A program made the translations under genes and the position numbers. From assembly GCA_031290135.1 (NCBI GenBank), contig JAITOE010000013.1, positions 1 to 48,867 of the forward strand: DNA of 48,867 nt, read 5' to 3'. The stretch comes from Eubacteriales Family XIII. Incertae Sedis bacterium. GTDB lineage: Bacteria; Bacillota; Clostridia; Peptostreptococcales; Anaerovoracaceae. Below are positions 2 through 8,303 of the stretch, piece by piece. The first letter of the stretch is position 1; each line of letters opens with the position of its first letter. A model generated the notes under the pieces. It made no database searches. It saw only the letters and a program-made list of their open reading frames with translations, and was not told the origin of the DNA.

Positions 2-2836
2 GTGGATTACAACCAGGGGAGCTACGTGGAATGGGGCGAATACCCGAACGCGCACCGCAGGTATCTCTCCACCATGTGCAACCATTGCGAAAACCCGCCC
101 TGCATGACTAGCTGCAAGCTCGGCGCCACCTACAAATCGCCCGAAGGGCCCGTCCTCACGCATCCGGAAAAATGCGTCGGCTGCGGCGCCTGCGTCCGGG
201 CGTGCCCCTACGGCCAGCGCTTCCTGAACAAGAAAGAGGACAGCTACTTTGACGGCGCGCCGATTCCGGGCGAAGAGGCGAGCGCCGTCCGCGTCGGGAA
301 AGCCGAAAAATGCACGCTGTGCCAGGACCGGCTCGCGCAGGGGCTGGAACCGATCTGCGTGGAACTGTGTCCGGGCAACTGCCGCATCTTCGGCGACCTG
401 CTGGATCCCGAAAGCGAAATCAACTATTACATCAAGCTCATGGGCGCCGTGAAAATAGCAGGCACGTCCCTGTACTACGTGCTGCCGGAGGGGATGGATC
501 CGGCGCTCCTGCCCCAGGGATACGAAGCCGGGACCGGCGCGCTGAAGCCGACGTCGGCGGCGAACGCGGCCGGGCCGCGCAAAACGCCGGAAGACCCGGA
601 CTACCGGGCCCTGATGGACGGCCTCATCAAAGCGCGGGACTTCGTGCGCAGGAATACGGACGCGAAACCGGACGTCGGGGGCGAATACAAATACAGCTAC
701 TGCGCCATGTGCAACCACATGGCGCGCTGCGGCGTCAAAGCCGTCGTGAAAGACGGGAAGGTGCTGCGTCTGGAGCGGCGCGAGGAATATGGCAACGAGC
801 TTCTCTGCGCCATGGGCAACGCTTCCGTGCAGGATCTCTACGCGCCGGACCGCGTTCTTTACCCGCTCAGGCGGACGAACCCGAAAGGCGAACGCAGCCA
901 GTGGAAGCGCATCACCTGGGAAGAGGCCTTAGCCGAGATCGCGGAGAAGATCGGCGGCGTCAAGGAAAAATACGGGGCGGAAAAAGTCCTGTTCATGACG
1001 GGAGACCCGAAAGAGCCGCGCTCGGTGCTGCAGCGTCTGGCCTACAGCTTCGGTTCGCCGAACTTCGGGACGGAAAGCTCCACCTGCTACACGGCGGCGG
1101 AGGTCGCGATCCGGCTCATCTACGGCGTCGGCAGCCGGCATGTCATCCCCATCGCCGGCGGCGCGATGCCGGACGTAAACGACACGAAGCTCTGCCTCGT
1201 CTGGGCGAACAACTTCGGAACTTCGCAGGGCTTTCTCTATGACAAGGTAAAGACGGCGCGGGAGTTCGGCAACGCGAAGTACATCGTCATCGACTCGCGG
1301 GTGACGGCGGTGACGGAAAATTTCGCGGACGTGCACCTGCAGATCCGGCCCGGCGCGGACGGCGCGCTGGCGCTGTTTTTCGGAAACTGGCTGATCAGCC
1401 ACGGTGCGTATGACAAGGATTTCGTCGAAAAATGGACCCATGGCTTCGAAGAATACAAGGCGCTCTGCGAGCAGTACGGGCTGGAAAAAACCGCGGATAT
1501 CTGCGGCATCCCGGCGGAACTCCTGAAAGAGGCGGCGGATATGATCGTGGCGGCGGGCGCCCCCATCGCCATCAAAAGCTCGGCGTCCTATCCGCAACAT
1601 ACGAACGGCGTGGACAATTACCGCGCGATCCAGCTCTTGGTGCCGCTGACGGGCAGCTTAGACGTGGAAGGCGGACACCTCCTCGCGAACGAACCCCTGC
1701 AGCTGGACATGTGGGGCGGCACCTTCCCGTTCGCGCGGGCGCATGAACTCCTGCCGCAGCTCAAAGACAAACGCGTGGACACGAAATATTTCCCGGTCTG
1801 GGCGGCTACGGACGTGGACGGCTGCGTCCAGATGAACAAGCTGCCGGAATACGTGCGCGACGGGGAACTGCGCGCCTGCATCGCGCTGGGCCTCAACTGC
1901 ATCATGTGGCCGCAGTCCCATGAATACCAGCAAGCCTTCCGCGACATGGAATTCGTCGTCTGCGCCGACTTCCGCGACAACCCGTGGACGCACGACTACG
2001 CGGACATGCTGCTGCCGGCGGCGATGTCCTATGAACGCGCGGCGCCGCTCTCCGTCGTCGGGCGCAGGCTGTTTCTGCGCGAGCCCATCGTGGAGCCGGC
2101 GGGCGAGGCCCGAAGCGACTACCGCATCGTCTGCGACATCGCCACCGCGCTCGGATACGGGGATCTGTTCTGGAACGGCGGCGAACAGGCGGAGGAACAC
2201 TGCCTGCGCGAGATCCTGCGCACCGTCGGCGGCGCCAAGGAAGTCACGCTGGAGGAGCTGCGGGCGGCGGTGCCGGACGGGGTCGCCATCCCGCTCCGGG
2301 GCAGGATGCAATACAAAAAGTACGAACTCGGCCTGCTGCGGCCGGACGGCAAGCCCGGTTTCATGACGCCCAGCGGCAAGGTGGAATTCGCCTCCGAAAT
2401 TCTCCGCGCGCACGGGTTCGAACCCCTGCCGGTCTACCGGGAGCCGACCTACAGCCCGCGTTCCACGCCGGAGATCGCGAAAGAATACCCGCTGGAACTC
2501 ATTACGGGGGCGCGCGTCCCGTTCTATTCCAACGCGAAGGAGCGGGAGCTCCCCTGGCTCAGGCGCTTCATGCCGGAACCCGTGGTGAAGCTCGGCAGGG
2601 CGGACGCGGACGCGCGCGGGCTGGAGGACGGCGACGCCATACGCGTCACGTCGCCCGTGAACCCGGAGGGCATCGTCGCGAAGCTTCAGATCACGAACAC
2701 GCTCCGGCCGGGGCTGACGGACATGCTGCACGGCTGGGCGGAGGCAAACGTCAACGAGCTGGTCCCGCGCGATTTCGACCCCATCAGCGGGTTTCCGCCG
2801 TATAAAGAGGGGCTCGTGCAGATAGAAAGAGCGTGA
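2..2836 (+). CDS. Fused 4Fe-4S ferredoxin-type (DmsB/PsrB/NrfC-like) domain + molybdopterin (bis-MGD) oxidoreductase catalytic subunit; 5' end runs off the window
   Basis: The N-terminal part has Cys clusters CNHCENPPC, CVGCGACVRACP and CTLCQDR...CVELCP. A linker follows, then the MopB-type FeS motif YCAMCNHMARCG...C and the long MopB/molydop-binding body, including FGSPNFGTESSTCYTAAE. The long ORF is open at position 2. Confidence 0.85.
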   Translation: MDYNQGSYVEWGEYPNAHRRYLSTMCNHCENPPCMTSCKLGATYKSPEGPVLTHPEKCVGCGACVRACPYGQRFLNKKEDSYFDGAPIPGEEASAVRVGKAEKCTLCQDRLAQGLEPICVELCPGNCRIFGDLLDPESEINYYIKLMGAVKIAGTSLYYVLPEGMDPALLPQGYEAGTGALKPTSAANAAGPRKTPEDPDYRALMDGLIKARDFVRRNTDAKPDVGGEYKYSYCAMCNHMARCGVKAVVKDGKVLRLERREEYGNELLCAMGNASVQDLYAPDRVLYPLRRTNPKGERSQWKRITWEEALAEIAEKIGGVKEKYGAEKVLFMTGDPKEPRSVLQRLAYSFGSPNFGTESSTCYTAAEVAIRLIYGVGSRHVIPIAGGAMPDVNDTKLCLVWANNFGTSQGFLYDKVKTAREFGNAKYIVIDSRVTAVTENFADVHLQIRPGADGALALFFGNWLISHGAYDKDFVEKWTHGFEEYKALCEQYGLEKTADICGIPAELLKEAADMIVAAGAPIAIKSSASYPQHTNGVDNYRAIQLLVPLTGSLDVEGGHLLANEPLQLDMWGGTFPFARAHELLPQLKDKRVDTKYFPVWAATDVDGCVQMNKLPEYVRDGELRACIALGLNCIMWPQSHEYQQAFRDMEFVVCADFRDNPWTHDYADMLLPAAMSYERAAPLSVVGRRLFLREPIVEPAGEARSDYRIVCDIATALGYGDLFWNGGEQAEEHCLREILRTVGGAKEVTLEELRAAVPDGVAIPLRGRMQYKKYELGLLRPDGKPGFMTPSGKVEFASEILRAHGFEPLPVYREPTYSPRSTPEIAKEYPLELITGARVPFYSNAKERELPWLRRFMPEPVVKLGRADADARGLEDGDAIRVTSPVNPEGIVAKLQITNTLRPGLTDMLHGWAEANVNELVPRDFDPISGFPPYKEGLVQIERA

Positions 2837-2842
2837 GCGCCA

Positions 2843-2984
2843 CGTCATTGCGAGGAGCGAAGCACCCCCGTCATTGCGAGGAGCGAAGCACCCCCGACAT
2901 TGCGAGGAGCGAAGCGACGACGCTACCCAGAGGCGCTGGATTGCTCCGCTGCGCTCGCAACGACAGACGCCCCGCCATTGCGGA
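2843..2984. repeat. Family-1 palindromic repeat cluster: three tandem 26-bp left arms CGTCATTGCGAGGAGCGAAGCACCC, one complementary right arm (..GCGCTCGCAACGAC..) and a partial extra arm
   Basis: Arms start at 2843, 2869 and 2895. The right arm CTGGATTGCTCCGCTGCGCTCGCAACGACAG lies at 2936-2966. The same arm sequences recur at 37743, 39148 and 42356. Confidence 0.85.
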
Positions 2985-3003
2985 CAACATAAAGGAGAAA
3001 AAT

Positions 3004-4752
3004 ATGCCTGCACAGGTAACTACACACAGCACGGACGTGCTGGTCGTCGGCGGGGGGATCGGCGGTCTTGCTGCCGCCATCCGCGCGCGGGAGAACGGCG
3101 CGGCGGTGACCGTCCTGGAGAAAGCAAACACGGAACGCAGCGGCTTGGCGGGTTCCGGCATCGACCACATCCAGAGCTATATCCCGGAGGTGCATGAAAA
3201 AATCGGATACACGGAAGCGGATCTGGCGAACGACCAGTTCGAATTCGGCGGCAATTTAGGCGGCTTCCGCCGCAGGGACCTGACAGATTACTACGCTTAC
3301 CATTCCGCGAAAGACGTGATAGAACTGGAAAAATATGGGTTGCGATTCCGTTTCGAAGACAGCGACCTGCCGGGCGGCTTCCGCGTCGTGCCGCAATTCC
3401 ACAACGTTCCCACGAGCTACCATTTCGAGGGGCGGGACGTGAAGCGCAAACTGACGGAGCAGGCGCTTGCCCGCGGCGCCGTGATCCTGAACCGGCAGCA
3501 CGTCCGGACCTTGCTGAAAGACGGCGGCGCGGTCACGGGCGCCGTCGCTGTCGGCACGCGGGATGAACGCATCACCGTCGTGAACGCCAAAACGACGATC
3601 CTCGCCACCTCCGGCGTGGGCTCGCGGCTCAGCAGCAGCGCGACGGGCAGCGACACCTTCGAAAACTTCGGTGCGCCGACGGCAAGCATCGGAAGCGGGA
3701 AGATCCTCGCGGCGAAAGCGGGCGCGGAAGTCGTGAACCTGGAATTTACGAACCTCGGCGAATTCGCGTACAGTTTCCTGAATTATTCGTTTACCGTCGG
3801 GCTGCCGAGCGGTTCGTGGTGGCCGGCCGGCCGCATCGTGGACGAGGAAGGGAACGTCGTGGTTGACAGGAACCGCTCCCTGCCGTGGACGGAAGCGGAT
3901 TACAAAAAAAAGTACCGCGCATTGGTCGATCACTACCATGAACAGCGAAGCCGCATCGCGCCGCTGCTGATTCAGGGAAAGGCGCTGTATTTCGACCTGC
4001 ACGAAGCGACCGACGCGGAGCTTGCTTACATATGGTGGTCGCTTGGGCATGAAGGGAAGACCGGCGTCATGAAGCGGCACCTGGAGAAGAACGGCGTGAA
4101 TCTCAGGACGGCGCGCTTTCCGCTCCGCGTCGCGGGCAGGGGGACGCCCGTGCTGGCGGGCATCTGGGTGAAAGACACGACGACGGAGACGAACGTCCGG
4201 AACCTGTACGCGTCCGGGAACGAGCCCGCGGGGACGGGCATGCCGCTCCCCGTGGCGGGCGGCGCGCTGGTGTACGGCTACCGTTCCGGCGAACAGGCGG
4301 CGCTGCGGGCGAAAACCCTCGCCCCGCCGGCAGACGTGTCCGCGCCCTATGTGGAAGCGCTGGCCGGCCAGGCGCAGGAGATCCGTTCGCGCAAAGAGGG
4401 CGATCCCTGGCGCCTTGCGGAACGCGGGCTGCAAGTGCTGATCGACAATGCCCTGGGGAAAGCGTACACGGACAAGTCCGTTGCCTTGACGCAGCAGCAG
4501 CTGCGCCGCCAACGGGAAAGCCTGCGGTTCTCCGCCGGGAACCCCCATGAACTGAGCCGCGTATTCGAGGTGCTCGACCTGTATGACCTGGCGGAGCTCG
4601 TGCTGGCGTCCATCCGGGAGCGGAAATCCAGCCTCGCGCCTTTCGTCCGCTTAGACGGGGCGGACAGCCCTTCTGAGAAATACGGGGATTCGGTCGGCGT
4701 GTACTGGGAAGGCGAAGCGCTGAAAGCGAAGCGCCTGTCCAACCTGACCTGA
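3004..4752 (+). CDS. FAD-dependent oxidoreductase of the fumarate reductase/succinate dehydrogenase/AprA flavoprotein superfamily
   Basis: AAGGAG RBS, then ATG at 3004. The dinucleotide-binding motif DVLVVGGGIGGLAAA is at the N-terminus. The upstream part of track ORF 2833 is repeat-derived. Size is about 580 aa. Confidence 0.8.
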   Translation: MPAQVTTHSTDVLVVGGGIGGLAAAIRARENGAAVTVLEKANTERSGLAGSGIDHIQSYIPEVHEKIGYTEADLANDQFEFGGNLGGFRRRDLTDYYAYHSAKDVIELEKYGLRFRFEDSDLPGGFRVVPQFHNVPTSYHFEGRDVKRKLTEQALARGAVILNRQHVRTLLKDGGAVTGAVAVGTRDERITVVNAKTTILATSGVGSRLSSSATGSDTFENFGAPTASIGSGKILAAKAGAEVVNLEFTNLGEFAYSFLNYSFTVGLPSGSWWPAGRIVDEEGNVVVDRNRSLPWTEADYKKKYRALVDHYHEQRSRIAPLLIQGKALYFDLHEATDAELAYIWWSLGHEGKTGVMKRHLEKNGVNLRTARFPLRVAGRGTPVLAGIWVKDTTTETNVRNLYASGNEPAGTGMPLPVAGGALVYGYRSGEQAALRAKTLAPPADVSAPYVEALAGQAQEIRSRKEGDPWRLAERGLQVLIDNALGKAYTDKSVALTQQQLRRQRESLRFSAGNPHELSRVFEVLDLYDLAELVLASIRERKSSLAPFVRLDGADSPSEKYGDSVGVYWEGEALKAKRLSNLT

Positions 4753-4778
4753 CCCCGCGAAATTCGAAAGGAGACGAA

Positions 4779-4991
4779 ATGGCGATCACCATCGATAAAA
4801 ACAAATGCACGGCCTGCGGGAAATGCGTCGATATTTGCCTGGAAGACGTGCTCGGCATCGAAAACGGAGCGGCGGCCGTCCTCTATCCGAGGGAATGCTG
4901 GCGGTGCGGCTCCTGTGTCTACGACTGCGCGTTCGGCGCGATCACGGTGGACCTGGACGCGGACAACAGCATCCGGTTCATAGAATTTTGA
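4779..4991 (+). CDS. Small 2x[4Fe-4S] ferredoxin (AprB N-terminal-like partner of the flavoprotein)
   Basis: CTACGKCVDIC and CWRCGSCVYDC cluster motifs; GGAG RBS; tightly coupled to the flavoprotein gene. Confidence 0.8.
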   Translation: MAITIDKNKCTACGKCVDICLEDVLGIENGAAAVLYPRECWRCGSCVYDCAFGAITVDLDADNSIRFIEF

Positions 4992-4997
4992 CCCGCG

Positions 4998-5894
4998 ATG
5001 GCTAAGCAAACCTCCATCCAAGGGGCGGCACTCGAAACAGATAAACGGATCGTGGCAAAAGACGTCGGTCTCGTTTATAAAATACGAAGCCGCAGGAAAA
5101 AAGAAAACCGGACGCTTACGGCGCTGGAACATGTGGACATCGAAGTGAACAAGGGCGAGTTCTACGCCTTGGTCGGTCCGAGCGGCTGCGGAAAATCCAC
5201 GTTCCTGTACATCCTCGCGGGGCTCATCAAAAAGACCTCCGGCGCCCTTTACATCAACGGGCACGAAATCCACGGGCCGGATCTGGACCGCGGCATCATC
5301 ATGCAGCAATACGCGCTGTTTCCGTGGCGGACGATCCGCAAGAACGTGGAGCTGGGCCTGGAAGTGAAAGGCGTCAAAAAGGAAGAACGGGAGCGGATCG
5401 CGCTGGGTTTCATCGATTTAGTCGGGCTTTCCGAGTTCGCGGACAGATATCCCTACGAACTGTCCGGAGGCATGAAACAGCGCATCGCCATCGCGCGGGC
5501 GCTCGCCTACGATCCCGACGTGCTGCTGATGGACGAACCTTTCGCGGCGGTGGATGAACAGACGCGGGAAACCCTGCACGACGAGCTGCTGCGCATCTGG
5601 GAAAAGACAAACAAGACGATCATTTTTGTCACGCACAGCATTGATGAGGCCGTATTTCTCGCAGACCGCGTCGCCGTGATGACGCCCAGCCCCGGAAGCA
5701 TCAAGGAAGTCGTGGACATCAATCTGGGCAGGCCGCGTGTGAGCGGGCACATCAAGAGCACGCAGGCGTTCTCCATGCTGCGCCACCGGGTATGGGAACT
5801 GCTGCAAAACAGCGGCGAAACGGCGGATGCAGGCGCGGGCGCGGCGGCGGATTTCGACGTTTCAGAGGTCATCTCGGAAAGCGCGGTACTGTAA
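4998..5894 (+). CDS. ABC transporter ATP-binding protein (NitT/TauT, nitrate/sulfonate/taurine type)
   Basis: Walker A GPSGCGKST, signature LSGGMKQR, Walker B LLMDEPF. The start is uncertain because there is no clear SD. Confidence 0.88.
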   Translation: MAKQTSIQGAALETDKRIVAKDVGLVYKIRSRRKKENRTLTALEHVDIEVNKGEFYALVGPSGCGKSTFLYILAGLIKKTSGALYINGHEIHGPDLDRGIIMQQYALFPWRTIRKNVELGLEVKGVKKEERERIALGFIDLVGLSEFADRYPYELSGGMKQRIAIARALAYDPDVLLMDEPFAAVDEQTRETLHDELLRIWEKTNKTIIFVTHSIDEAVFLADRVAVMTPSPGSIKEVVDINLGRPRVSGHIKSTQAFSMLRHRVWELLQNSGETADAGAGAAADFDVSEVISESAVL

Positions 5895-6673
5895 TGGAAA
5901 CAAAAGAACAGAGCCGTTTGTTCACAGCCTACCAGAAATCCGTCGTGATCATCCTGGTGCTCGCCGCATGGAGCGTTTTTCCGCACTTCATGAAGAACAA
6001 CATGTTCCTGCCGCCGTTTCTCGACATCATGCAGACCTTGTGGGAGATGGTGCGGAGCGGCGAAATGGGCAAGCATCTGCTCGCCAGCCTGCGGCGCGCG
6101 GGGATCGGTCTCGCCATTGCGGAGGCGGCCGCAATCCCGGTAGGGATCGGCCTCGGCTGGTTCGCGCGCTTTGAGAATTATCTCGACCCGCTCCTGACGG
6201 CGCTGCGCAACCTGTCCGTGCTGACGATCCTCCCGCTGTTTGTCCTTTTCCTGGGGATCGGCGAGGTGTCAAAGACGGCGATCATCGTCTGGGGCTGTTT
6301 CTTTCCGCAGCTCGTCAATACGATCAGCGGGGTAAAAAACGTCGATCCCGTCCTCATCCAGTCCGCGCGGTCCATGGGCATGTCCAACTTTTCCCTTTTC
6401 CAAAAGGTAATCCTGCCGGGCTCCATGACCTATACCCTCACGGGCTTCCGGCTCAGCGCGTCCATCGCGCTCTTGGTTCTTGTCGGCGCGGAGATGCTCG
6501 GCGCGGATTTCGGGCTCGGCCACATGATATTCCATTATCAGCAGGCGTTCCTTATCAAAAAAATGTATTGCGGCATCCTCGTGATGATCATAGTAGGCGT
6601 CGTAGTCAATACGCTGATTGCCAGGCTGGAAAGCCGCCTGACGATCTGGCAGGATAAAGGAAACGCGCATTAA
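5894..6673 (+). CDS. ABC transporter permease (BPD_transp_1, NitT/TauT type)
   Basis: ATG overlaps the upstream stop (TAATG). Multi-TM protein METKEQSRLF..., typical SsuC/TauC-like length. Confidence 0.88.
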   Translation: METKEQSRLFTAYQKSVVIILVLAAWSVFPHFMKNNMFLPPFLDIMQTLWEMVRSGEMGKHLLASLRRAGIGLAIAEAAAIPVGIGLGWFARFENYLDPLLTALRNLSVLTILPLFVLFLGIGEVSKTAIIVWGCFFPQLVNTISGVKNVDPVLIQSARSMGMSNFSLFQKVILPGSMTYTLTGFRLSASIALLVLVGAEMLGADFGLGHMIFHYQQAFLIKKMYCGILVMIIVGVVVNTLIARLESRLTIWQDKGNAH

Positions 6674-6681
6674 ATAACGTA

Positions 6682-6868
6682 GCTGCGGGACTGGCGTAAC
6701 CCTCCGGGTCTGGGCGACTGACGCCTATGCGGGCGGCGCAGAGCGCCTTGTATACGGCAGCAAAGCTGCCGTATAAGGTTCGCTTAGCTATTTCCCGCCT
6801 ACGGTGGGAAATAGAGCGAGACCATTATGCCCGCAATCCCGCCCTACGGGTTACGTCCGCCCCGCAGC
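6682..6868. repeat. Family-2 palindromic element (terminal inverted repeats GCTGCGGGACTGGCGTAACCC / GGGTTACGTCCGCCCCGCAGC) carrying a 75-bp nested insertion
   Basis: The core CTGACGCCTATGCGGGCGGCGCAGAGCGCCTTGTAT ... GCCCGCAATCCCGCC(C)TACGGGTT is shared with 40507-40616. The extra 6754-6828 forms two hairpins and is flanked by TAT/TAT. Confidence 0.85.
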
Positions 6869-6908
6869 CGCGAAAATACGAAGATTCATAAACAATGGGA
6901 GGAAGAAC

Positions 6909-7979
6909 ATGAAAAAGAACATGAAAACGAACATGAAAAAGAAGAACATCACACGCTGCTTGTCGATAGGGTTAATGGCCGCGCTGCTGGGGCTGACGAC
7001 GGCCTGCGGCGGGACGGGCGGTTCAAGCAGCGACGGCGGGAACGCCGGATCCGGGGAGACGGGAGAAGAAAGCTACGTGCTGAAATGGGCGAGCATCGGC
7101 ACCAACCCGACCTCCGTGGACGCCGTCTCGATAGGCGTTTACAAGGGCTTCTTCGCGGAAGCGGGGATCGAATTTGAAGACGTGGGCGAGGTGGCGATCC
7201 CGCAATTTGTTCCCGCGCTGCTCTCCGGCGGCGTCACCGGCGCCACGCTCATGACGTCGAACGGCATCGCGGCCATCGACAGCGGCGGCGAGATCATCGA
7301 GGTGGCGGTCAATTCCTACACGACGAAGGAACTGCCGCACATGGTTTTCGTAACGGCGGAAAACAGCCCGGTCAAGAACGGAAAGGATCTGGAAGGCAAG
7401 CGCGTCGGCGTCCCTGCCATCGACGGCTGCACGGCGGGCTTCCCCATCGAATACGCGGCGCAGGCCGGCGTCGAGGATCCGAACGCCGCCATTCAGTTTG
7501 TCGTGATGCCGGACACCAGCCTCATTGAATCGCTGCGCAAAGGCGACATTGACGTGGCCGGCCTGCATTTGCCGCCGGCGGTCGTCGAAAAACTCTATCC
7601 GGACACGGAGATCCTGTTCACGGACTATGACATTTTGGACAACAGGGGCGGCGACATTTCCTACTATTTCCCCAAGTCCTACATTGAAGAGAACGAGGAA
7701 GCCGTGCGCCGCTTTATCGGCGCCATCGCGAAGACGAACAACTGGATCAACGAGAACACGGAGGAAGCGGTCCGCATCTACCGGGAGGAGATCAACCCCA
7801 ACGCGAACGCGGACCTGCTGTATGCCGCGCACTTCGCGGAGGACGCGCTGATCGAGGAGAGCCATACGGATCTATGGATCGACATCCTGTCGGCGGGCGG
7901 TTCCATACAGCCGCTGGAAAACGAGTGGACTTTTGAGCAAGTCGCCACCAACGAATACAATCCGAATTACGTGAAATAG
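6909..7979 (+). CDS. ABC substrate-binding lipoprotein (NMT1/SsuA/TauA-like)
   Basis: GGGAGG RBS, then ATG 6909. Signal peptide plus lipobox LTTACGG and a Gly/Ser linker. Adjacent to the matching permease and ATPase. Confidence 0.85.
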   Translation: MKKNMKTNMKKKNITRCLSIGLMAALLGLTTACGGTGGSSSDGGNAGSGETGEESYVLKWASIGTNPTSVDAVSIGVYKGFFAEAGIEFEDVGEVAIPQFVPALLSGGVTGATLMTSNGIAAIDSGGEIIEVAVNSYTTKELPHMVFVTAENSPVKNGKDLEGKRVGVPAIDGCTAGFPIEYAAQAGVEDPNAAIQFVVMPDTSLIESLRKGDIDVAGLHLPPAVVEKLYPDTEILFTDYDILDNRGGDISYYFPKSYIEENEEAVRRFIGAIAKTNNWINENTEEAVRIYREEINPNANADLLYAAHFAEDALIEESHTDLWIDILSAGGSIQPLENEWTFEQVATNEYNPNYVK

Positions 7980-8086
7980 GCAAGGAGGGGAAATTGGCGG
8001 GCATCAACAATCCCGCCAACCCGCGCATCCACAAGGCGACGACGGCGGACGAAATCTGCTGATGACAACACGGAGAATAGCGCAGA

Positions 8087-8118
8087 AAAGCCGCAGTCGA
8101 AAAGATCGCGGCTTTTTG
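8087..8118 (+). terminator. Possible intrinsic terminator after the ABC operon
   Basis: AAAAGCCGC...GCGGCTTTTTG, a short imperfect stem with flanking A and T tracts. Confidence 0.35.
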
Positions 8119-8274
8119 TTGCCTATTCCTCAATTAACTCAAAAAGATGATTGCTTATATAGCTTACCACGTTTTTAAGAAAATACCAAGGGGCTTCAAC
8201 TGCGTTTTTAAGAAAAAATTCCCAAAAAATTCCCGCGATTCCTACAAATTTTGCCGCTGCAATGAAATATATGC

Positions 8275-8303
8275 TTGACCGAATGGGCGTAAAGCACTAA
8301 AAT
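8275..8303 (+). promoter_or_regulatory. Sigma-A-type promoter for the APC permease
   Basis: TTGACC (8275-8280), 17 bp, TAAAAT (8298-8303). The AT-rich upstream region has direct repeats CGTTTTTAAGAAAA (8170, 8203) and AAAAAATTCCC x2 (8213-8234). Confidence 0.5.

What the first reader, a model, noticed from the sequence alone, without database searches (positions are those of the whole stretch)
2..7979. Cytoplasmic-looking redox module: FeS-fused Cys-type molybdopterin oxidoreductase + AprAB-like flavoprotein/ferredoxin, coupled to a sulfonate/nitrate-type ABC importer
The first ORF fuses a DmsB/PsrB-like poly-ferredoxin domain N-terminally to a MopB catalytic subunit; these are normally two separate polypeptides. 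No membrane anchor gene follows. The segment FGSPNFGTESSTCYTAAE aligns by eye with NapA GSNN..ARHCMAS and FdhF GTNN..ARVUHGPS, which puts a Cys at the Mo-ligand position, as in Psr/Phs/Nap-type enzymes. Next come a flavoprotein of about 580 aa from the AprA/fumarate-reductase superfamily and a 70-aa 2x[4Fe-4S] protein with AprB-like cluster spacing (C..C..C...C / CW.C.SC...C). A complete NitT/TauT-family ABC importer (SsuABC/TauABC-like) follows. Together these suggest import and reductive or oxidative processing of an organosulfur or related oxyanion substrate. No characterised operon with this composition comes to mind.
Basis: partly seen in the sequence, partly recalled or inferred. Interest (0 to 1): 0.6.

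Follow-up and report, generated by a model that had tools for sequence, protein, structure and literature searches.

The report
Anaerobic sulfur-scavenging reductase and importer operon
An uncultured gut anaerobe carries a six-gene operon (an importer, a single-chain cytoplasmic molybdenum enzyme, and a flavoprotein-ferredoxin pair resembling sulfate-activating reductases) that looks built to extract sulfur from an imported compound when sulfur is scarce; no such system has been described.

Summary
Window 2-7979 is one operon: a PsrB/DsrO-type four-cluster domain fused to a Cys-ligand bis-MGD subunit, an AprA/PAPS-reductase-like flavoprotein, a 70-aa AprB-like ferredoxin, and a NitT/TauT ABC importer. 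The missing N-terminus lies on contig C115 and starts directly with an Fe-S motif, without a Tat signal. The fusion is not an artefact: 35 fused homologues form one clade nested among Tat-exported two-subunit relatives.

The flavoprotein and ferredoxin are adjacent in nearly all 29 loci found in 185,579 species genomes. In termite-gut Clostridia and one Coriobacteriaceae MAG they sit with the fused Mo enzyme, the same importer type, bona fide CysK, and often nitrogenase-like sulfur genes.

The flavoprotein has 0 Cys and 3 Met in 582 residues (0.7th percentile of its genome). Its whole close clade is equally depleted, which is the signature of sulfur-starvation proteins.

Best reading: a sulfur-starvation operon that imports an oxidised sulfur compound and reduces it in the cytoplasm for cysteine synthesis. 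Substrate and chemistry are unknown. AprA, formate dehydrogenase and acetylene hydratase catalytic residues are not conserved.

An earlier scan note (e1-2993565) found the same kind of fusion on other DNA.

The parts
2..2836 (+). Single-chain Mo/W-bis-MGD oxidoreductase, 5' end cut by the contig edge. About 33 codons are missing, and 25 of them lie on contig C115. Residues 1-146 are a PsrB/DsrO-type Fe-S domain (four clusters in full-length homologues). Residues 147-228 are a linker that replaces the Tat signal. Residues 229-944 are the MopB catalytic part, with the FS0 motif CxxCx5C...C and the ligand Cys in ESSTC.
   Evidence: Pfam and NCBIfam; PDB sequence search; full-length homologues; N-terminus on C115; tree
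2840..2917 (.). Three tandem 26-nt copies of a REP-like repeat (CCxCGTCATTGCGAGGAGCGAAGCAC) in the 167-nt spacer between the Mo-enzyme gene and the flavoprotein gene. It is a genome-wide repeat family and not part of the function.
3004..4752 (+). AprA/PAPS-reductase-like flavoprotein of 582 aa with non-covalent FAD (RSG motif). It has 0 Cys and 3 Met. The family-invariant motif is GIDH.
4779..4991 (+). 70-aa 2x[4Fe-4S] ferredoxin, AprB/PAPS-reductase-beta-like core with the ECW(41)xCGSC motif. It is the predicted partner subunit of the flavoprotein.
   Evidence: PMC10322725 for Trp42 of the solved beta subunit
4998..5894 (+). ABC importer ATPase of the NitT/TauT family
5891..6673 (+). ABC importer permease of the NitT/TauT family. 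Its start overlaps the ATPase stop.
6682..6868 (.). MITE-like repeat element inserted between the permease gene and the binding-protein gene
6910..7979 (+). NMT1-type substrate-binding lipoprotein (lipobox LTTAC). The mature part is Cys/Met-poor (1.5%, 5.9th percentile of the genome).
8086..8120 (+). Terminator-like hairpin plus U-tract that ends the operon. A promoter-like site for the next gene follows at 8275-8303.
   Evidence: dG -22.4 kcal/mol, z -4.6

Best explanation
This is a sulfur-starvation operon of a strict anaerobe.

Proposed steps:
1. A lipoprotein-anchored NitT/TauT-family ABC importer brings in an oxidised sulfur compound. Candidates are a sulfonate, sulfate ester, S-sulfonate or sulfoxide-type molecule; the identity is unknown.
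2. Two ferredoxin-fed cytoplasmic reductases work on it.
3. Enzyme one is an alpha-beta flavo-iron-sulfur enzyme built like dissimilatory APS reductase and the methanogen PAPS reductase. Electrons run from the two [4Fe-4S] clusters through a conserved Trp to FAD. By analogy, reduced FAD attacks a sulfo group and releases sulfite.
4. Enzyme two is a single polypeptide in which a four-cluster ferredoxin wire is fused to a Cys-ligand Mo/W-bis-MGD catalytic subunit. It descends from a Tat-exported two-subunit reductase and was moved into the cytoplasm. It most likely removes an oxygen atom from, or cleaves an S-S/S-SO3 bond in, the same substrate or a related one.
5. The reduced sulfur goes to cysteine synthase.

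Shown: the gene architecture, the cytoplasmic location, the conserved linkage, the alpha-beta architecture and the sulfur-economy signature.

Inferred: the direction of the reaction (reduction), the substrate class, the products, and the division of labour between the two enzymes.
For: (1) One transcription unit.
- Promoter-like site and RBS lie on C115.
- Gaps between genes are short or overlapping, apart from two repeat insertions.
- A strong hairpin plus U-tract follows the binding-protein gene.

(2) Cytoplasmic location.
- The N-terminus begins with the first CxxCxxCxxxC motif.
- TatC was not found in the genome.
- No twin-arginine motif occurs in any of its MopB paralogues.
- Among unfused relatives, 66 of 79 carry RRxFL.

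(3) The fusion is old and selected. The fused forms make one clade with support 100, nested in Tat-type forms whose genes stand in the order FeS then MopB.

(4) Linkage.
- The flavoprotein and ferredoxin are adjacent in nearly all 29 loci.
- The fused Mo enzyme, flavoprotein, ferredoxin and NMT1-type ABC genes occur together, in different orders, in the window and in L015/L033, L019, L020/L034 and L021.
- Three further Family XIII MAGs that hold the depleted flavoprotein also hold a 74-78% identical fused orthologue.
- An Acetivibrio MAG has the split form next to the flavoprotein.

(5) Sulfur context.
- PALP neighbours pass NCBI's CysK cut-off: 446.8 vs 350.95 and 386 vs 351.
- Cys_Met_Meta_PP, PatB-type C-S lyase, GST-like and nitrogenase-like (NFL) genes recur.
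- Group IV NFL genes are known to be linked to sulfur acquisition (PMC13753814, PMC13474568).
- The own genome holds five NFL modules, each with its own NitT/TauT importer plus CysK-like and/or Cys_Met_Meta_PP genes. No ATP sulfurylase was found.

(6) Sulfur economy.
- The window flavoprotein has 0.52% Met+Cys, against a genome median of 3.7% (0.7th percentile).
- All 14 close-clade members have 0.2-1.8%, against 2-5.8% in the distant clade.
- The neighbouring binding proteins and CysK are also depleted.
- Such depletion is typical of proteins induced by sulfur starvation (PMC2940859, citing Baudouin-Cornu 2001 and Mazel & Marliere 1989).

(7) AprAB-like architecture.
- The profile hits PAPS reductase alpha at 7e-50, AprA at 3e-37 and FrdA at 1e-28.
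- Foldseek ranks 8a8o_A and 1jnr_A first.
- The ferredoxin profile hits PAPS reductase beta over its full length at 4e-16.
- The complex model scores 0.92, with the best control at 0.02. That mark was reached by 58 of 80 solved complexes and 2 of 110 mismatched pairs. The runs share at least 92% of contacts and the partner pLDDT is at least 89.
- Like complexes are solved, so this pass shows likeness to AprAB rather than independent proof.
Against: - No substrate is identified.
- The AprA/PAPS-reductase catalytic His (AprA His398, 'GGH' in 8a8o) aligns with variable residues, Arg/Lys in the close clade. AprA Asn74 aligns with Gln or variable residues. The family instead has an invariant GIDH. 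FAD-N5 sulfite chemistry is therefore only an analogy.
- If sulfite is the product, a sulfite reductase is needed. None is encoded in any of the neighbourhoods, and the genome has only one small NIR_SIR gene, elsewhere.
- The Mo enzyme is not clearly Met-depleted: 2.2% vs about 2.8% in unfused relatives.
- The Mo enzyme also occurs without the flavoprotein, next to amino-acid ABC importers and C-S lyases (L011, L012, L013, L016).
- The flavoprotein occurs without the Mo enzyme in six of the genomes searched.
- No SAM riboswitch, T-box or regulator gene ties the operon to sulfur status.
- More distant flavoprotein relatives have normal Cys/Met content and other neighbours such as MttB-family methyltransferases. 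The family as a whole may therefore not be sulfur-specific.
- The genome is a MAG at 89% completeness, so absences (TatC, Sat) are not proven.
Confidence: 0.55

Rival explanations
1. Electron-sink or catabolic module. The importer brings in an abundant organic acceptor, and both reductases serve fermentative redox balance or energy metabolism in the cytoplasm, not sulfur assimilation.
For: - The unfused relatives look like exported respiratory reductases with TorD-like chaperones and LuxR regulators.
- They are common in gut metagenomes.
- Distant flavoprotein homologues have normal Cys/Met content and sit beside Opp importers, MttB-type methyltransferases and aminotransferases.
Against: - The flavoprotein clade, the binding proteins and the CysK neighbours are extremely depleted in Cys and Met. 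This is not expected of a bulk catabolic enzyme unless sulfur is limiting.
- CysK and C-S-lyase genes are adjacent.
- The genes are interleaved with NFL sulfur modules.
Confidence: 0.15
2. One integrated complex. The Mo enzyme, the ferredoxin and the flavoprotein form a single electron-transfer machine that couples oxidation of one compound at one site to reduction of another at the other site. An example would be SoeA-like sulfite oxidation, or a formate-type donor, feeding the flavin.
For: - The genes are adjacent in six or more loci.
- In L019 a ferredoxin gene directly follows the Mo-enzyme gene, and a second one follows the flavoprotein genes.
- The top NCBIfam hit of the MopB part is Fdh-alpha, at 289 bits.
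Against: - Each enzyme occurs without the other in several genomes.
- There are 1-3 flavoprotein paralogues per single Mo enzyme.
- FdhH His141 and Arg333 align with Tyr and Leu, so it is not a formate dehydrogenase.
- Oxidising sulfite to sulfate would waste sulfur in an organism with no detectable ATP sulfurylase.
Confidence: 0.1
3. Non-sulfur oxyanion assimilation or detoxification. One possibility is nitrate assimilation, with a NasC-like cytoplasmic Cys-ligand Mo enzyme plus an NrtABC-like importer. Another is selenium or arsenic oxyanion handling.
For: - The ATPase's best NCBIfam hit is the nitrate ABC subfamily (239 bits, cut-off 291.8).
- NasC scores 170 bits.
- Assimilatory nitrate reductases are cytoplasmic, ferredoxin-dependent and Cys-liganded (established knowledge).
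- In L012 a YgeY selenium-linked hydrolase lies nearby.
Against: - The NasC score is far below its cut-off of 1100, and below the PhsA and Fdh scores.
- No nitrite reductase is present.
- The depletion is in sulfur amino acids.
- The conserved neighbours are CysK, C-S lyases and NFL genes.
- The organism fixes N2, with a nifHDKEN cluster on C185.
Confidence: 0.07

Closest known systems
Dissimilatory APS reductase AprAB (A. fulgidus 1JNR) and the dissimilatory-type PAPS reductase of Methanothermococcus thermolithotrophicus (8A8O; PMC10322725)
   Same: - FAD alpha subunit of the fumarate-reductase fold with non-covalent FAD.
- Small beta subunit with two [4Fe-4S] clusters and a Trp next to a cluster Cys, facing the flavin.
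- Best sequence-profile, fold and complex-model matches.
   Different: - Only about 20% identity, far below the aprA model cut-off (58.5 vs 641.75 bits).
- The catalytic His and Asn are not conserved, and the family has its own invariant GIDH motif.
- The beta subunit lacks AprB's C-terminal tail (70 aa vs 150 aa).
- No ATP sulfurylase or APS kinase is in context.
- It is encoded with an importer, so the substrate is an imported compound, not APS/PAPS.
Polysulfide/thiosulfate reductases PsrABC/PhsABC (T. thermophilus 2VPW) and relatives (Ttr, Arr)
   Same: - Cys-ligand bis-MGD catalytic subunit with an FS0 cluster, plus a four-cluster PsrB/NrfC-type subunit.
- Full-length alignment to PhsA (224 bits) and PsrA, and of the Fe-S domain to PsrB, DsrO and ArrB.
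   Different: - All scores are far below the family cut-offs.
- The two subunits are fused in one chain.
- There is no Tat signal and no NrfD-type membrane anchor.
- The enzyme is cytoplasmic.
Acetylene hydratase (Pelobacter acetylenicus, 2E7Z)
   Same: - Best single PDB sequence match (3e-52).
- It shares the GSPN...C ligand motif (Cys141) and a cytoplasmic location.
   Different: - The catalytic Asp13 is Asn here.
- The FS0 spacing differs.
- Acetylene hydratase has no fused ferredoxin domain and is not a redox enzyme.
Sulfur-starvation operons ssuEADCB / tauABCD of E. coli (established knowledge)
   Same: - The same logic applies: a NitT/TauT-family ABC importer is encoded with the enzyme that frees sulfur from the imported compound.
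- The proteins are poor in Cys and Met.
   Different: - Ssu and Tau use O2-dependent monooxygenase/dioxygenase chemistry.
- This operon uses O2-sensitive Fe-S, flavin and Mo/W reductases, suited to an anaerobe.
- The importer subunits do not reach the Ssu/Tau equivalog cut-offs.
Nitrogenase-like sulfur modules (methylthio-alkane reductase MarBHDK; isethionate reductase; PMC12552129, PMC13753814, PMC13474568)
   Same: - They share the genomic neighbourhoods and the module design: a dedicated importer, an anaerobic reductive C-S/S-O enzyme and CysK or Cys_Met_Meta_PP.
- The window's genome has five such modules.
   Different: - The catalytic enzyme here is not nitrogenase-like.
- The papers read do not mention a molybdopterin enzyme or a flavoprotein in these clusters.

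Membership tests
DMSO-reductase (MopB, bis-MGD) superfamily | Molybdopterin and Molydop_binding domains with an N-terminal FS0 Cys cluster | tested here: met
   PF00384 scores 134.9 bits and PF01568 scores 66.6 bits, both above cut-off. The CxxCx5C...C motif lies at residues 234-270.
Psr/Phs-type polysulfide/thiosulfate reductase | Score above the PhsA equivalog cut-off, a Tat signal, and a separate PsrB subunit plus an NrfD-type anchor | tested here: not met
   PhsA scores 224 bits against a cut-off of 694. There is no Tat signal. The Fe-S subunit is fused, and no anchor gene is in the operon.
Formate dehydrogenase (FdhH/FdhF type) | Sec/Cys140-His141 pair and Arg333 | tested here: not met
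   Fdh-alpha scores 289 bits against a cut-off of 666. The ligand Cys is followed by Tyr, and Arg333 aligns with Leu. Only 2 of 105 relatives have Cys-His.
Acetylene hydratase | Cys141 as W ligand and Asp13 next to the FS0 Cys12 | tested here: not met
   The Cys141 equivalent is present, but Asp13 aligns with Asn. The dipeptide is Asn-His in 100 of 117 relatives.
Assimilatory nitrate reductase NasC/NasA | Score above the equivalog cut-off | tested here: not met
   NasC scores 170 bits vs a cut-off of 1100. NasA scores 72 bits vs 1000.
Dissimilatory APS reductase AprA / dissimilatory-type PAPS reductase alpha | FAD subunit of the fumarate-reductase fold that pairs with a 2x[4Fe-4S] beta subunit | tested here: met
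   Profile hits are 8a8o_A at 7e-50 and 1jnr_A at 3e-37. The fold search agrees. The complex model scores 0.92 with the best control at 0.02. A like complex is solved, so this shows likeness.
Dissimilatory APS reductase AprA / dissimilatory-type PAPS reductase alpha | Catalytic residues (A. fulgidus Asn74, Arg265, His398; numbering from memory, positions checked against the printed alignments) | tested here: not met
   The His ('GGH' of 8a8o) aligns with Arg/Lys or variable residues. Asn74 aligns with Gln or variable residues. The Arg265 equivalent could not be mapped. The aprA model scores 58.5 bits against a cut-off of 641.75.
AprB / PAPS reductase beta | Eight cluster Cys and a Trp after the first Cys of the second motif, facing FAD | tested here: met
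   C10, C13, C16, C20, C40, C43, C46 and C50 are invariant. W41 is present in most of the 26 sequences. It aligns 1-63 to 1-63 of 8a8o_C, and Trp42 is named in PMC10322725. The AprB C-terminal tail is absent.
APS/PAPS reduction pathway | ATP sulfurylase in the genome or in the gene context | tested here: not met
   PF01747 was not found in the own genome, which is 89% complete. It is also absent from the neighbourhoods.
NitT/TauT-family ABC importer | ATPase, one BPD_transp_1 permease and an NMT1-type binding protein with an export/lipid signal | tested here: met
   Pfam and NCBIfam family-level hits; lipobox LTTAC
SsuABC / TauABC (sulfonate / taurine importers) | Scores above the equivalog cut-offs | tested here: not met
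   SsuA_fam scores 55 bits vs a cut-off of 163.5. TauA scores 24.5 vs 304. TauB scores 232 vs 357. TauC scores 115 vs 342.

The most novel reading that the evidence does not exclude
The flavoprotein-ferredoxin pair founds a new class of anaerobic, ferredoxin-driven 'reductive desulfonating' enzymes. It would free sulfite, or a thiol, directly from imported sulfonates, sulfate esters or S-sulfonates. It would need no O2, no glycyl radical, no nitrogenase-like cofactor and no ATP activation. The single-chain cytoplasmic Mo/W enzyme would carry out a second reductive step on the same sulfur compound. Together they would form an undescribed route of sulfur acquisition in sulfur-poor guts such as the termite hindgut.
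Probability: 0.25. Interest if true: 0.8.

Novelty: new variant of a known kind. Interest (0 to 1): 0.62.

Why it matters
Few enzymes are known for anaerobic sulfur acquisition from organic sulfur compounds: glycyl-radical desulfonases, and more recently the nitrogenase-like MAR and ISR enzymes. This operon points to a third enzyme set, an AprAB-like flavo-Fe-S enzyme plus a cytoplasmic one-chain Mo/W enzyme. It is wired to the same importer family and to CysK, and it occurs in the same genomes.

The near-total removal of Cys and Met from a roughly 600-residue enzyme clade is an unusually clean signal that sulfur limitation shapes these gut bacteria. One member has a single Met and no Cys.

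The fusion also documents how an exported respiratory reductase was turned into a cytoplasmic enzyme in organisms that appear to lack Tat export.

A cultured carrier of the flavoprotein-ferredoxin pair exists (Lachnospiraceae bacterium NC2004), so the function can be tested.

Tried and rejected
- Riboswitch or T-box control. Rfam found nothing in the C115 leader. It found no SAM, T-box or Moco element in 27 related loci.
- Formate dehydrogenase, acetylene hydratase and nitrate reductase identities of the MopB part were rejected on catalytic residues and model cut-offs.
- True APS/PAPS reductase identity of the flavoprotein was rejected on catalytic residues, model cut-off and the absence of Sat.
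- The 'Sao' names hit by the ABC subunits belong to a selenoprotein/organometallic locus (bioRxiv 10.1101/2022.07.06.499078). All those scores are below cut-off, so they were not used.
- Contig C185 looked like the upstream neighbour because it carries four nif-type genes, as in L014. This was rejected: C185 is a true nifHDKEN cluster, and the N-terminus lies on C115.
- The genes upstream on C115 are MBOAT and polysaccharide deacetylase genes on the opposite strand, and are unrelated.
- A Pfam tally of 147 otherwise unlabelled neighbour ORFs found no sulfite reductase and no other recurrent enzyme apart from ABC permeases.
- Met depletion of the Mo enzyme is weak, so it was not used as support.
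The FastTree result was used instead.
- Literature searches for AprA-like enzymes, or for Mo enzymes in NFL clusters, found no description of this module.
- Residue-level superposition on 1JNR/8A8O could not be done, because no coordinates were available.

Full report
**What is there**

The window is the whole of contig C97 of a 2.76-Mb, 274-contig MAG that is 89% complete. Positions 2-7979 hold six + strand genes:
- a 944-aa protein whose first 146 residues are a Fer4_11 (PsrB/DsrO/NrfC-type) poly-ferredoxin domain and whose residues 230-941 are a MopB catalytic subunit;
- a 582-aa FAD_binding_2 flavoprotein (true start ATG 3004, RBS AAGGAG);
- a 70-aa 2x[4Fe-4S] ferredoxin;
- an ABC ATPase;
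- a permease;
- an NMT1-type binding lipoprotein (start 6910, lipobox LTTAC).

Two repeat elements interrupt the operon without breaking genes:
- three tandem 26-nt REP-like units at 2840-2917;

A hairpin with a U-tract at 8086-8120 (dG -22.4 kcal/mol, z -4.6) ends the unit. A promoter-like site for the next gene, an amino-acid permease, follows at 8275-8303.

**The true N-terminus**

Gene 1 runs off the contig. A tblastn search with the first 60 residues of the 87%-identical full-length homologue P0007 found residues 1-25 at the very end of contig C115. The features there are:
- a TTGACA-17-TATAAT promoter-like site;
- a leader of about 110 nt with no Rfam match;
- GGAGG, then ATG followed by MAQYGMLIDLERCTGCYSCVTSCKQ.

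About seven codons are unassembled between C115 and C97. The protein therefore starts directly with the first cluster motif and has no Tat or Sec signal. The full-length homologues start the same way. TatC was not found in the genome, and none of its nine MopB-like ORFs has a twin-arginine motif. MoeA is present. The genes upstream on C115 are unrelated and lie on the other strand.

**The fusion is real and has one origin**

Thirty-six fused homologues of 925-981 aa exist, in MAGs named Clostridiales Family XIII, Gracilibacteraceae, Oscillospiraceae and Coriobacteriaceae. In a FastTree of 115 MopB domains:
- 35 fused sequences, plus three N-terminally truncated records, form one clade with support 100;
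- that clade is nested among unfused forms of about 750 aa, 66 of 79 of which carry RRxFL.

In the sister group (Raoultibacter) a 273-aa Fer4_11 gene stands immediately upstream of the Tat-type MopB gene. It is accompanied by a TorD-like chaperone and a LuxR regulator, and no anchor gene is present. This is the gene order that a read-through fusion would give. An earlier scan note on another genome (e1-2993565) reached the same reading for a related fusion.

**What the Mo enzyme is not**

- The best PDB sequence match is acetylene hydratase (3e-52), followed by FdhH and PsrA.
- The best NCBIfam models are Fdh-alpha (289 bits), PhsA (224), DmsA/YnfE (180) and NasC (170). All are far below their cut-offs.
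- The Cys of GSPNFGTESSTC aligns with acetylene hydratase Cys141. It is Cys in all 105 relatives where the motif was located.
- The residue after it is Tyr, not the His of formate dehydrogenases, and FdhH Arg333 aligns with Leu.
- Acetylene hydratase Asp13 aligns with Asn.

It is therefore a Cys-ligand member of the Psr/Phs/AH/Fdh part of the superfamily, with no characterised orthologue.

**The flavoprotein and ferredoxin**

The flavoprotein family is small and uncharacterised:
- about 45 clusters at 36% identity or more among 5.8 billion proteins, followed by a sharp drop;
- 29 loci in 185,579 species genomes;
- 2 of 399 genomes in a class-level sample.

A profile of 32 members matches:
- AprA at 3e-37;
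- FrdA at 1e-28.

An AlphaFold model (pLDDT 88) gives the same order by Foldseek.

The ferredoxin family keeps eight Cys and the motif ECWxCGSC. Its profile aligns end to end with the PAPS reductase beta subunit (4e-16) and with AprB (2e-11). In the solved enzyme, Trp42 of the beta subunit is proposed to pass electrons to FAD (PMC10322725). Here the equivalent residue is W41.

The complex model supports binding:
- score 0.92, best control 0.02;
- the mark was reached by 58 of 80 solved complexes and 2 of 110 mismatched pairs;
- the runs share at least 92% of contacts, and the partner pLDDT is at least 89;
- the RSG loop of the flavoprotein lies against residues 38-49 of the ferredoxin.

Because AprAB-type complexes are solved, this shows likeness rather than independent proof.

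The family is not an APS reductase:
- the aprA model scores 58.5 bits against a cut-off of 641.75;
- the catalytic His aligns with Arg/Lys or variable residues;
- Asn74 aligns with Gln or variable residues;
- the family has its own invariant GIDH motif;
- no ATP sulfurylase was found.

**Linkage**

I labelled the neighbours of 42 loci with local phmmer searches.
- The ferredoxin gene touches the flavoprotein gene in nearly every locus.
- Around the pair there is almost always an ABC importer.
  - It is NMT1-type in the termite-gut Family XIII, Gracilibacteraceae and Coriobacteriaceae MAGs.
  - It is Opp/SBP5-type in the Lachnospiraceae, Dorea, Agathobacter and other MAGs.
- PALP, Cys_Met_Meta_PP, GST-like and nitrogenase-like genes are frequent.
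- The PALP genes pass NCBI's CysK cut-off.
- The fused Mo enzyme sits with the flavoprotein, the ferredoxin and the NMT1-type importer in the window and in L015/L033, L019, L020/L034 and L021, each with a different gene order.
- In L014 the fused Mo enzyme lies inside a nitrogenase-like cluster that also holds a radical-SAM gene, NifH, CysK and two NMT1 importers.

At genome level:
- all three further Family XIII MAGs that hold the close-clade flavoprotein also hold a 74-78% identical fused orthologue;
- an Acetivibrio MAG has the split form beside the flavoprotein;
- six genomes with Opp-type modules have no orthologue.

Conversely, fused Mo enzymes in L011, L012, L013 and L016 lack the flavoprotein. 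They sit by polar-amino-acid importers, a cystathionine-lyase-family gene and a PatB-type C-S lyase. The two enzymes are therefore linked in one lineage but are not obligate partners.

**Sulfur economy**

| Protein or group | Met+Cys | Source |
|---|---|---|
| Window flavoprotein (582 aa; 0 Cys, 3 Met) | 0.52% (0.7th percentile) | |
| 1,668 long ORFs of the genome, median | 3.7% | |
| Mature binding protein | 5.9th percentile | |
| 14 close-clade flavoproteins (53% identity or more) | 0.2-1.8% | |
| 18 more distant flavoproteins | 2-5.8% | |

One close-clade member has 615 residues with a single Met and no Cys. Cys residues that are conserved in the distant clade are replaced in the close clade.

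Neighbouring CysK genes have no Cys. Two SBP5 binding proteins of about 540 aa have 2-3 sulfur residues.

Proteins induced by sulfur starvation are typically depleted in this way (PMC2940859 and the references it cites). The Mo enzyme, which needs 21 ligand Cys, shows only a slight Met reduction.

**Genome background**

- The MAG has a true nifHDKEN cluster on C185.
- It has about eight further nitrogenase-like D/K pairs.
- Five of these sit with their own NitT/TauT importer, a CysK-like gene and/or a Cys_Met_Meta_PP gene.
- Group IV nitrogenase-like enzymes are known or suspected sulfur-acquisition enzymes (PMC13753814, PMC13474568, PMC12552129).
- The papers read do not mention a molybdopterin enzyme or a flavoprotein in such clusters.

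The window's operon looks like another module of the same design, with a different catalytic core.

**Reading**

The most likely function is sulfur acquisition under sulfur limitation. An oxidised sulfur compound is imported, reduced in the cytoplasm by two ferredoxin-dependent enzymes, and the product is handed to cysteine synthase. I put this at about 0.55.

Within it, two more specific ideas are each only analogies, at roughly 0.25-0.3:
- FAD-N5 attack on a sulfo group, releasing sulfite;
- oxygen-atom abstraction or S-S/S-SO3 cleavage by the Mo enzyme.

The main gaps are the unknown substrate, the missing AprA catalytic residues, the lack of a linked sulfite reductase, and the lack of any recognisable sulfur-responsive regulator or riboswitch.

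**Novelty**

The parts belong to known superfamilies. The following are not described in anything I could find:
- the flavoprotein-ferredoxin family;
- the one-chain cytoplasmic Mo enzyme;
- their conserved combination with an importer and CysK.

I class the finding as a new variant of a known kind.

Noticed in passing
own genome contigs C205, C217, C234, C249, C266, C30, C68, C267 (not in the window): There are about eight nitrogenase-like D/K pairs in addition to a true nifHDKEN cluster on C185. Five of them sit with their own NitT/TauT ABC importer, a CysK-like gene and/or a Cys_Met_Meta_PP gene. This is an unusually large set of putative anaerobic sulfur-scavenging modules for a 2.8-Mb genome.
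   Followed up: partly
window 2840-2917: Three tandem 26-nt copies of a REP-like unit (GTCATTGCGAGGAGCGAAGCAC core) lie between two genes of the operon. Read in frame, they extend the raw flavoprotein ORF by 57 spurious codons.
   Followed up: partly
window 6682-6868: A MITE-like element lies between the permease gene and the binding-protein gene of the same operon.
   Followed up: no
L028 8707-8793 and 10638-10724 (genome G189): Two GA-cis RNA motifs (Rfam RF02987, 81-83 bits) lie in the short gaps between the two flavoprotein paralogues and the ferredoxin gene of an Opp-type module. That module also encodes three GST-like proteins and CysK.
   Followed up: no
L021 5477-7324 (protein P0134): This is a 615-residue flavoprotein with one Met (the initiator) and no Cys, the most extreme case of sulfur-amino-acid removal in the family.
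   Followed up: partly
own genome: TatC was not found, and no MopB paralogue carries a twin-arginine motif. All nine Mo/W enzymes of this organism therefore appear to be cytoplasmic. The genome is 89% complete.
   Followed up: partly
L051, L054, L055 and other distant flavoprotein loci: Among the neighbours of the distant, normally composed flavoprotein clade there are MttB-family methyltransferases (4 of 147 ORFs) and URO-D-type proteins. This hints at a different, methyl-transfer-linked role there.
   Followed up: no
L012 6564-9053: A YgeY-family 'selenium metabolism-linked' hydrolase (420 bits, above cut-off) and an ornithine-racemase-like gene lie just upstream of a fused Mo-enzyme homologue. 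A xanthine-dehydrogenase-type gene lies downstream.
   Followed up: no
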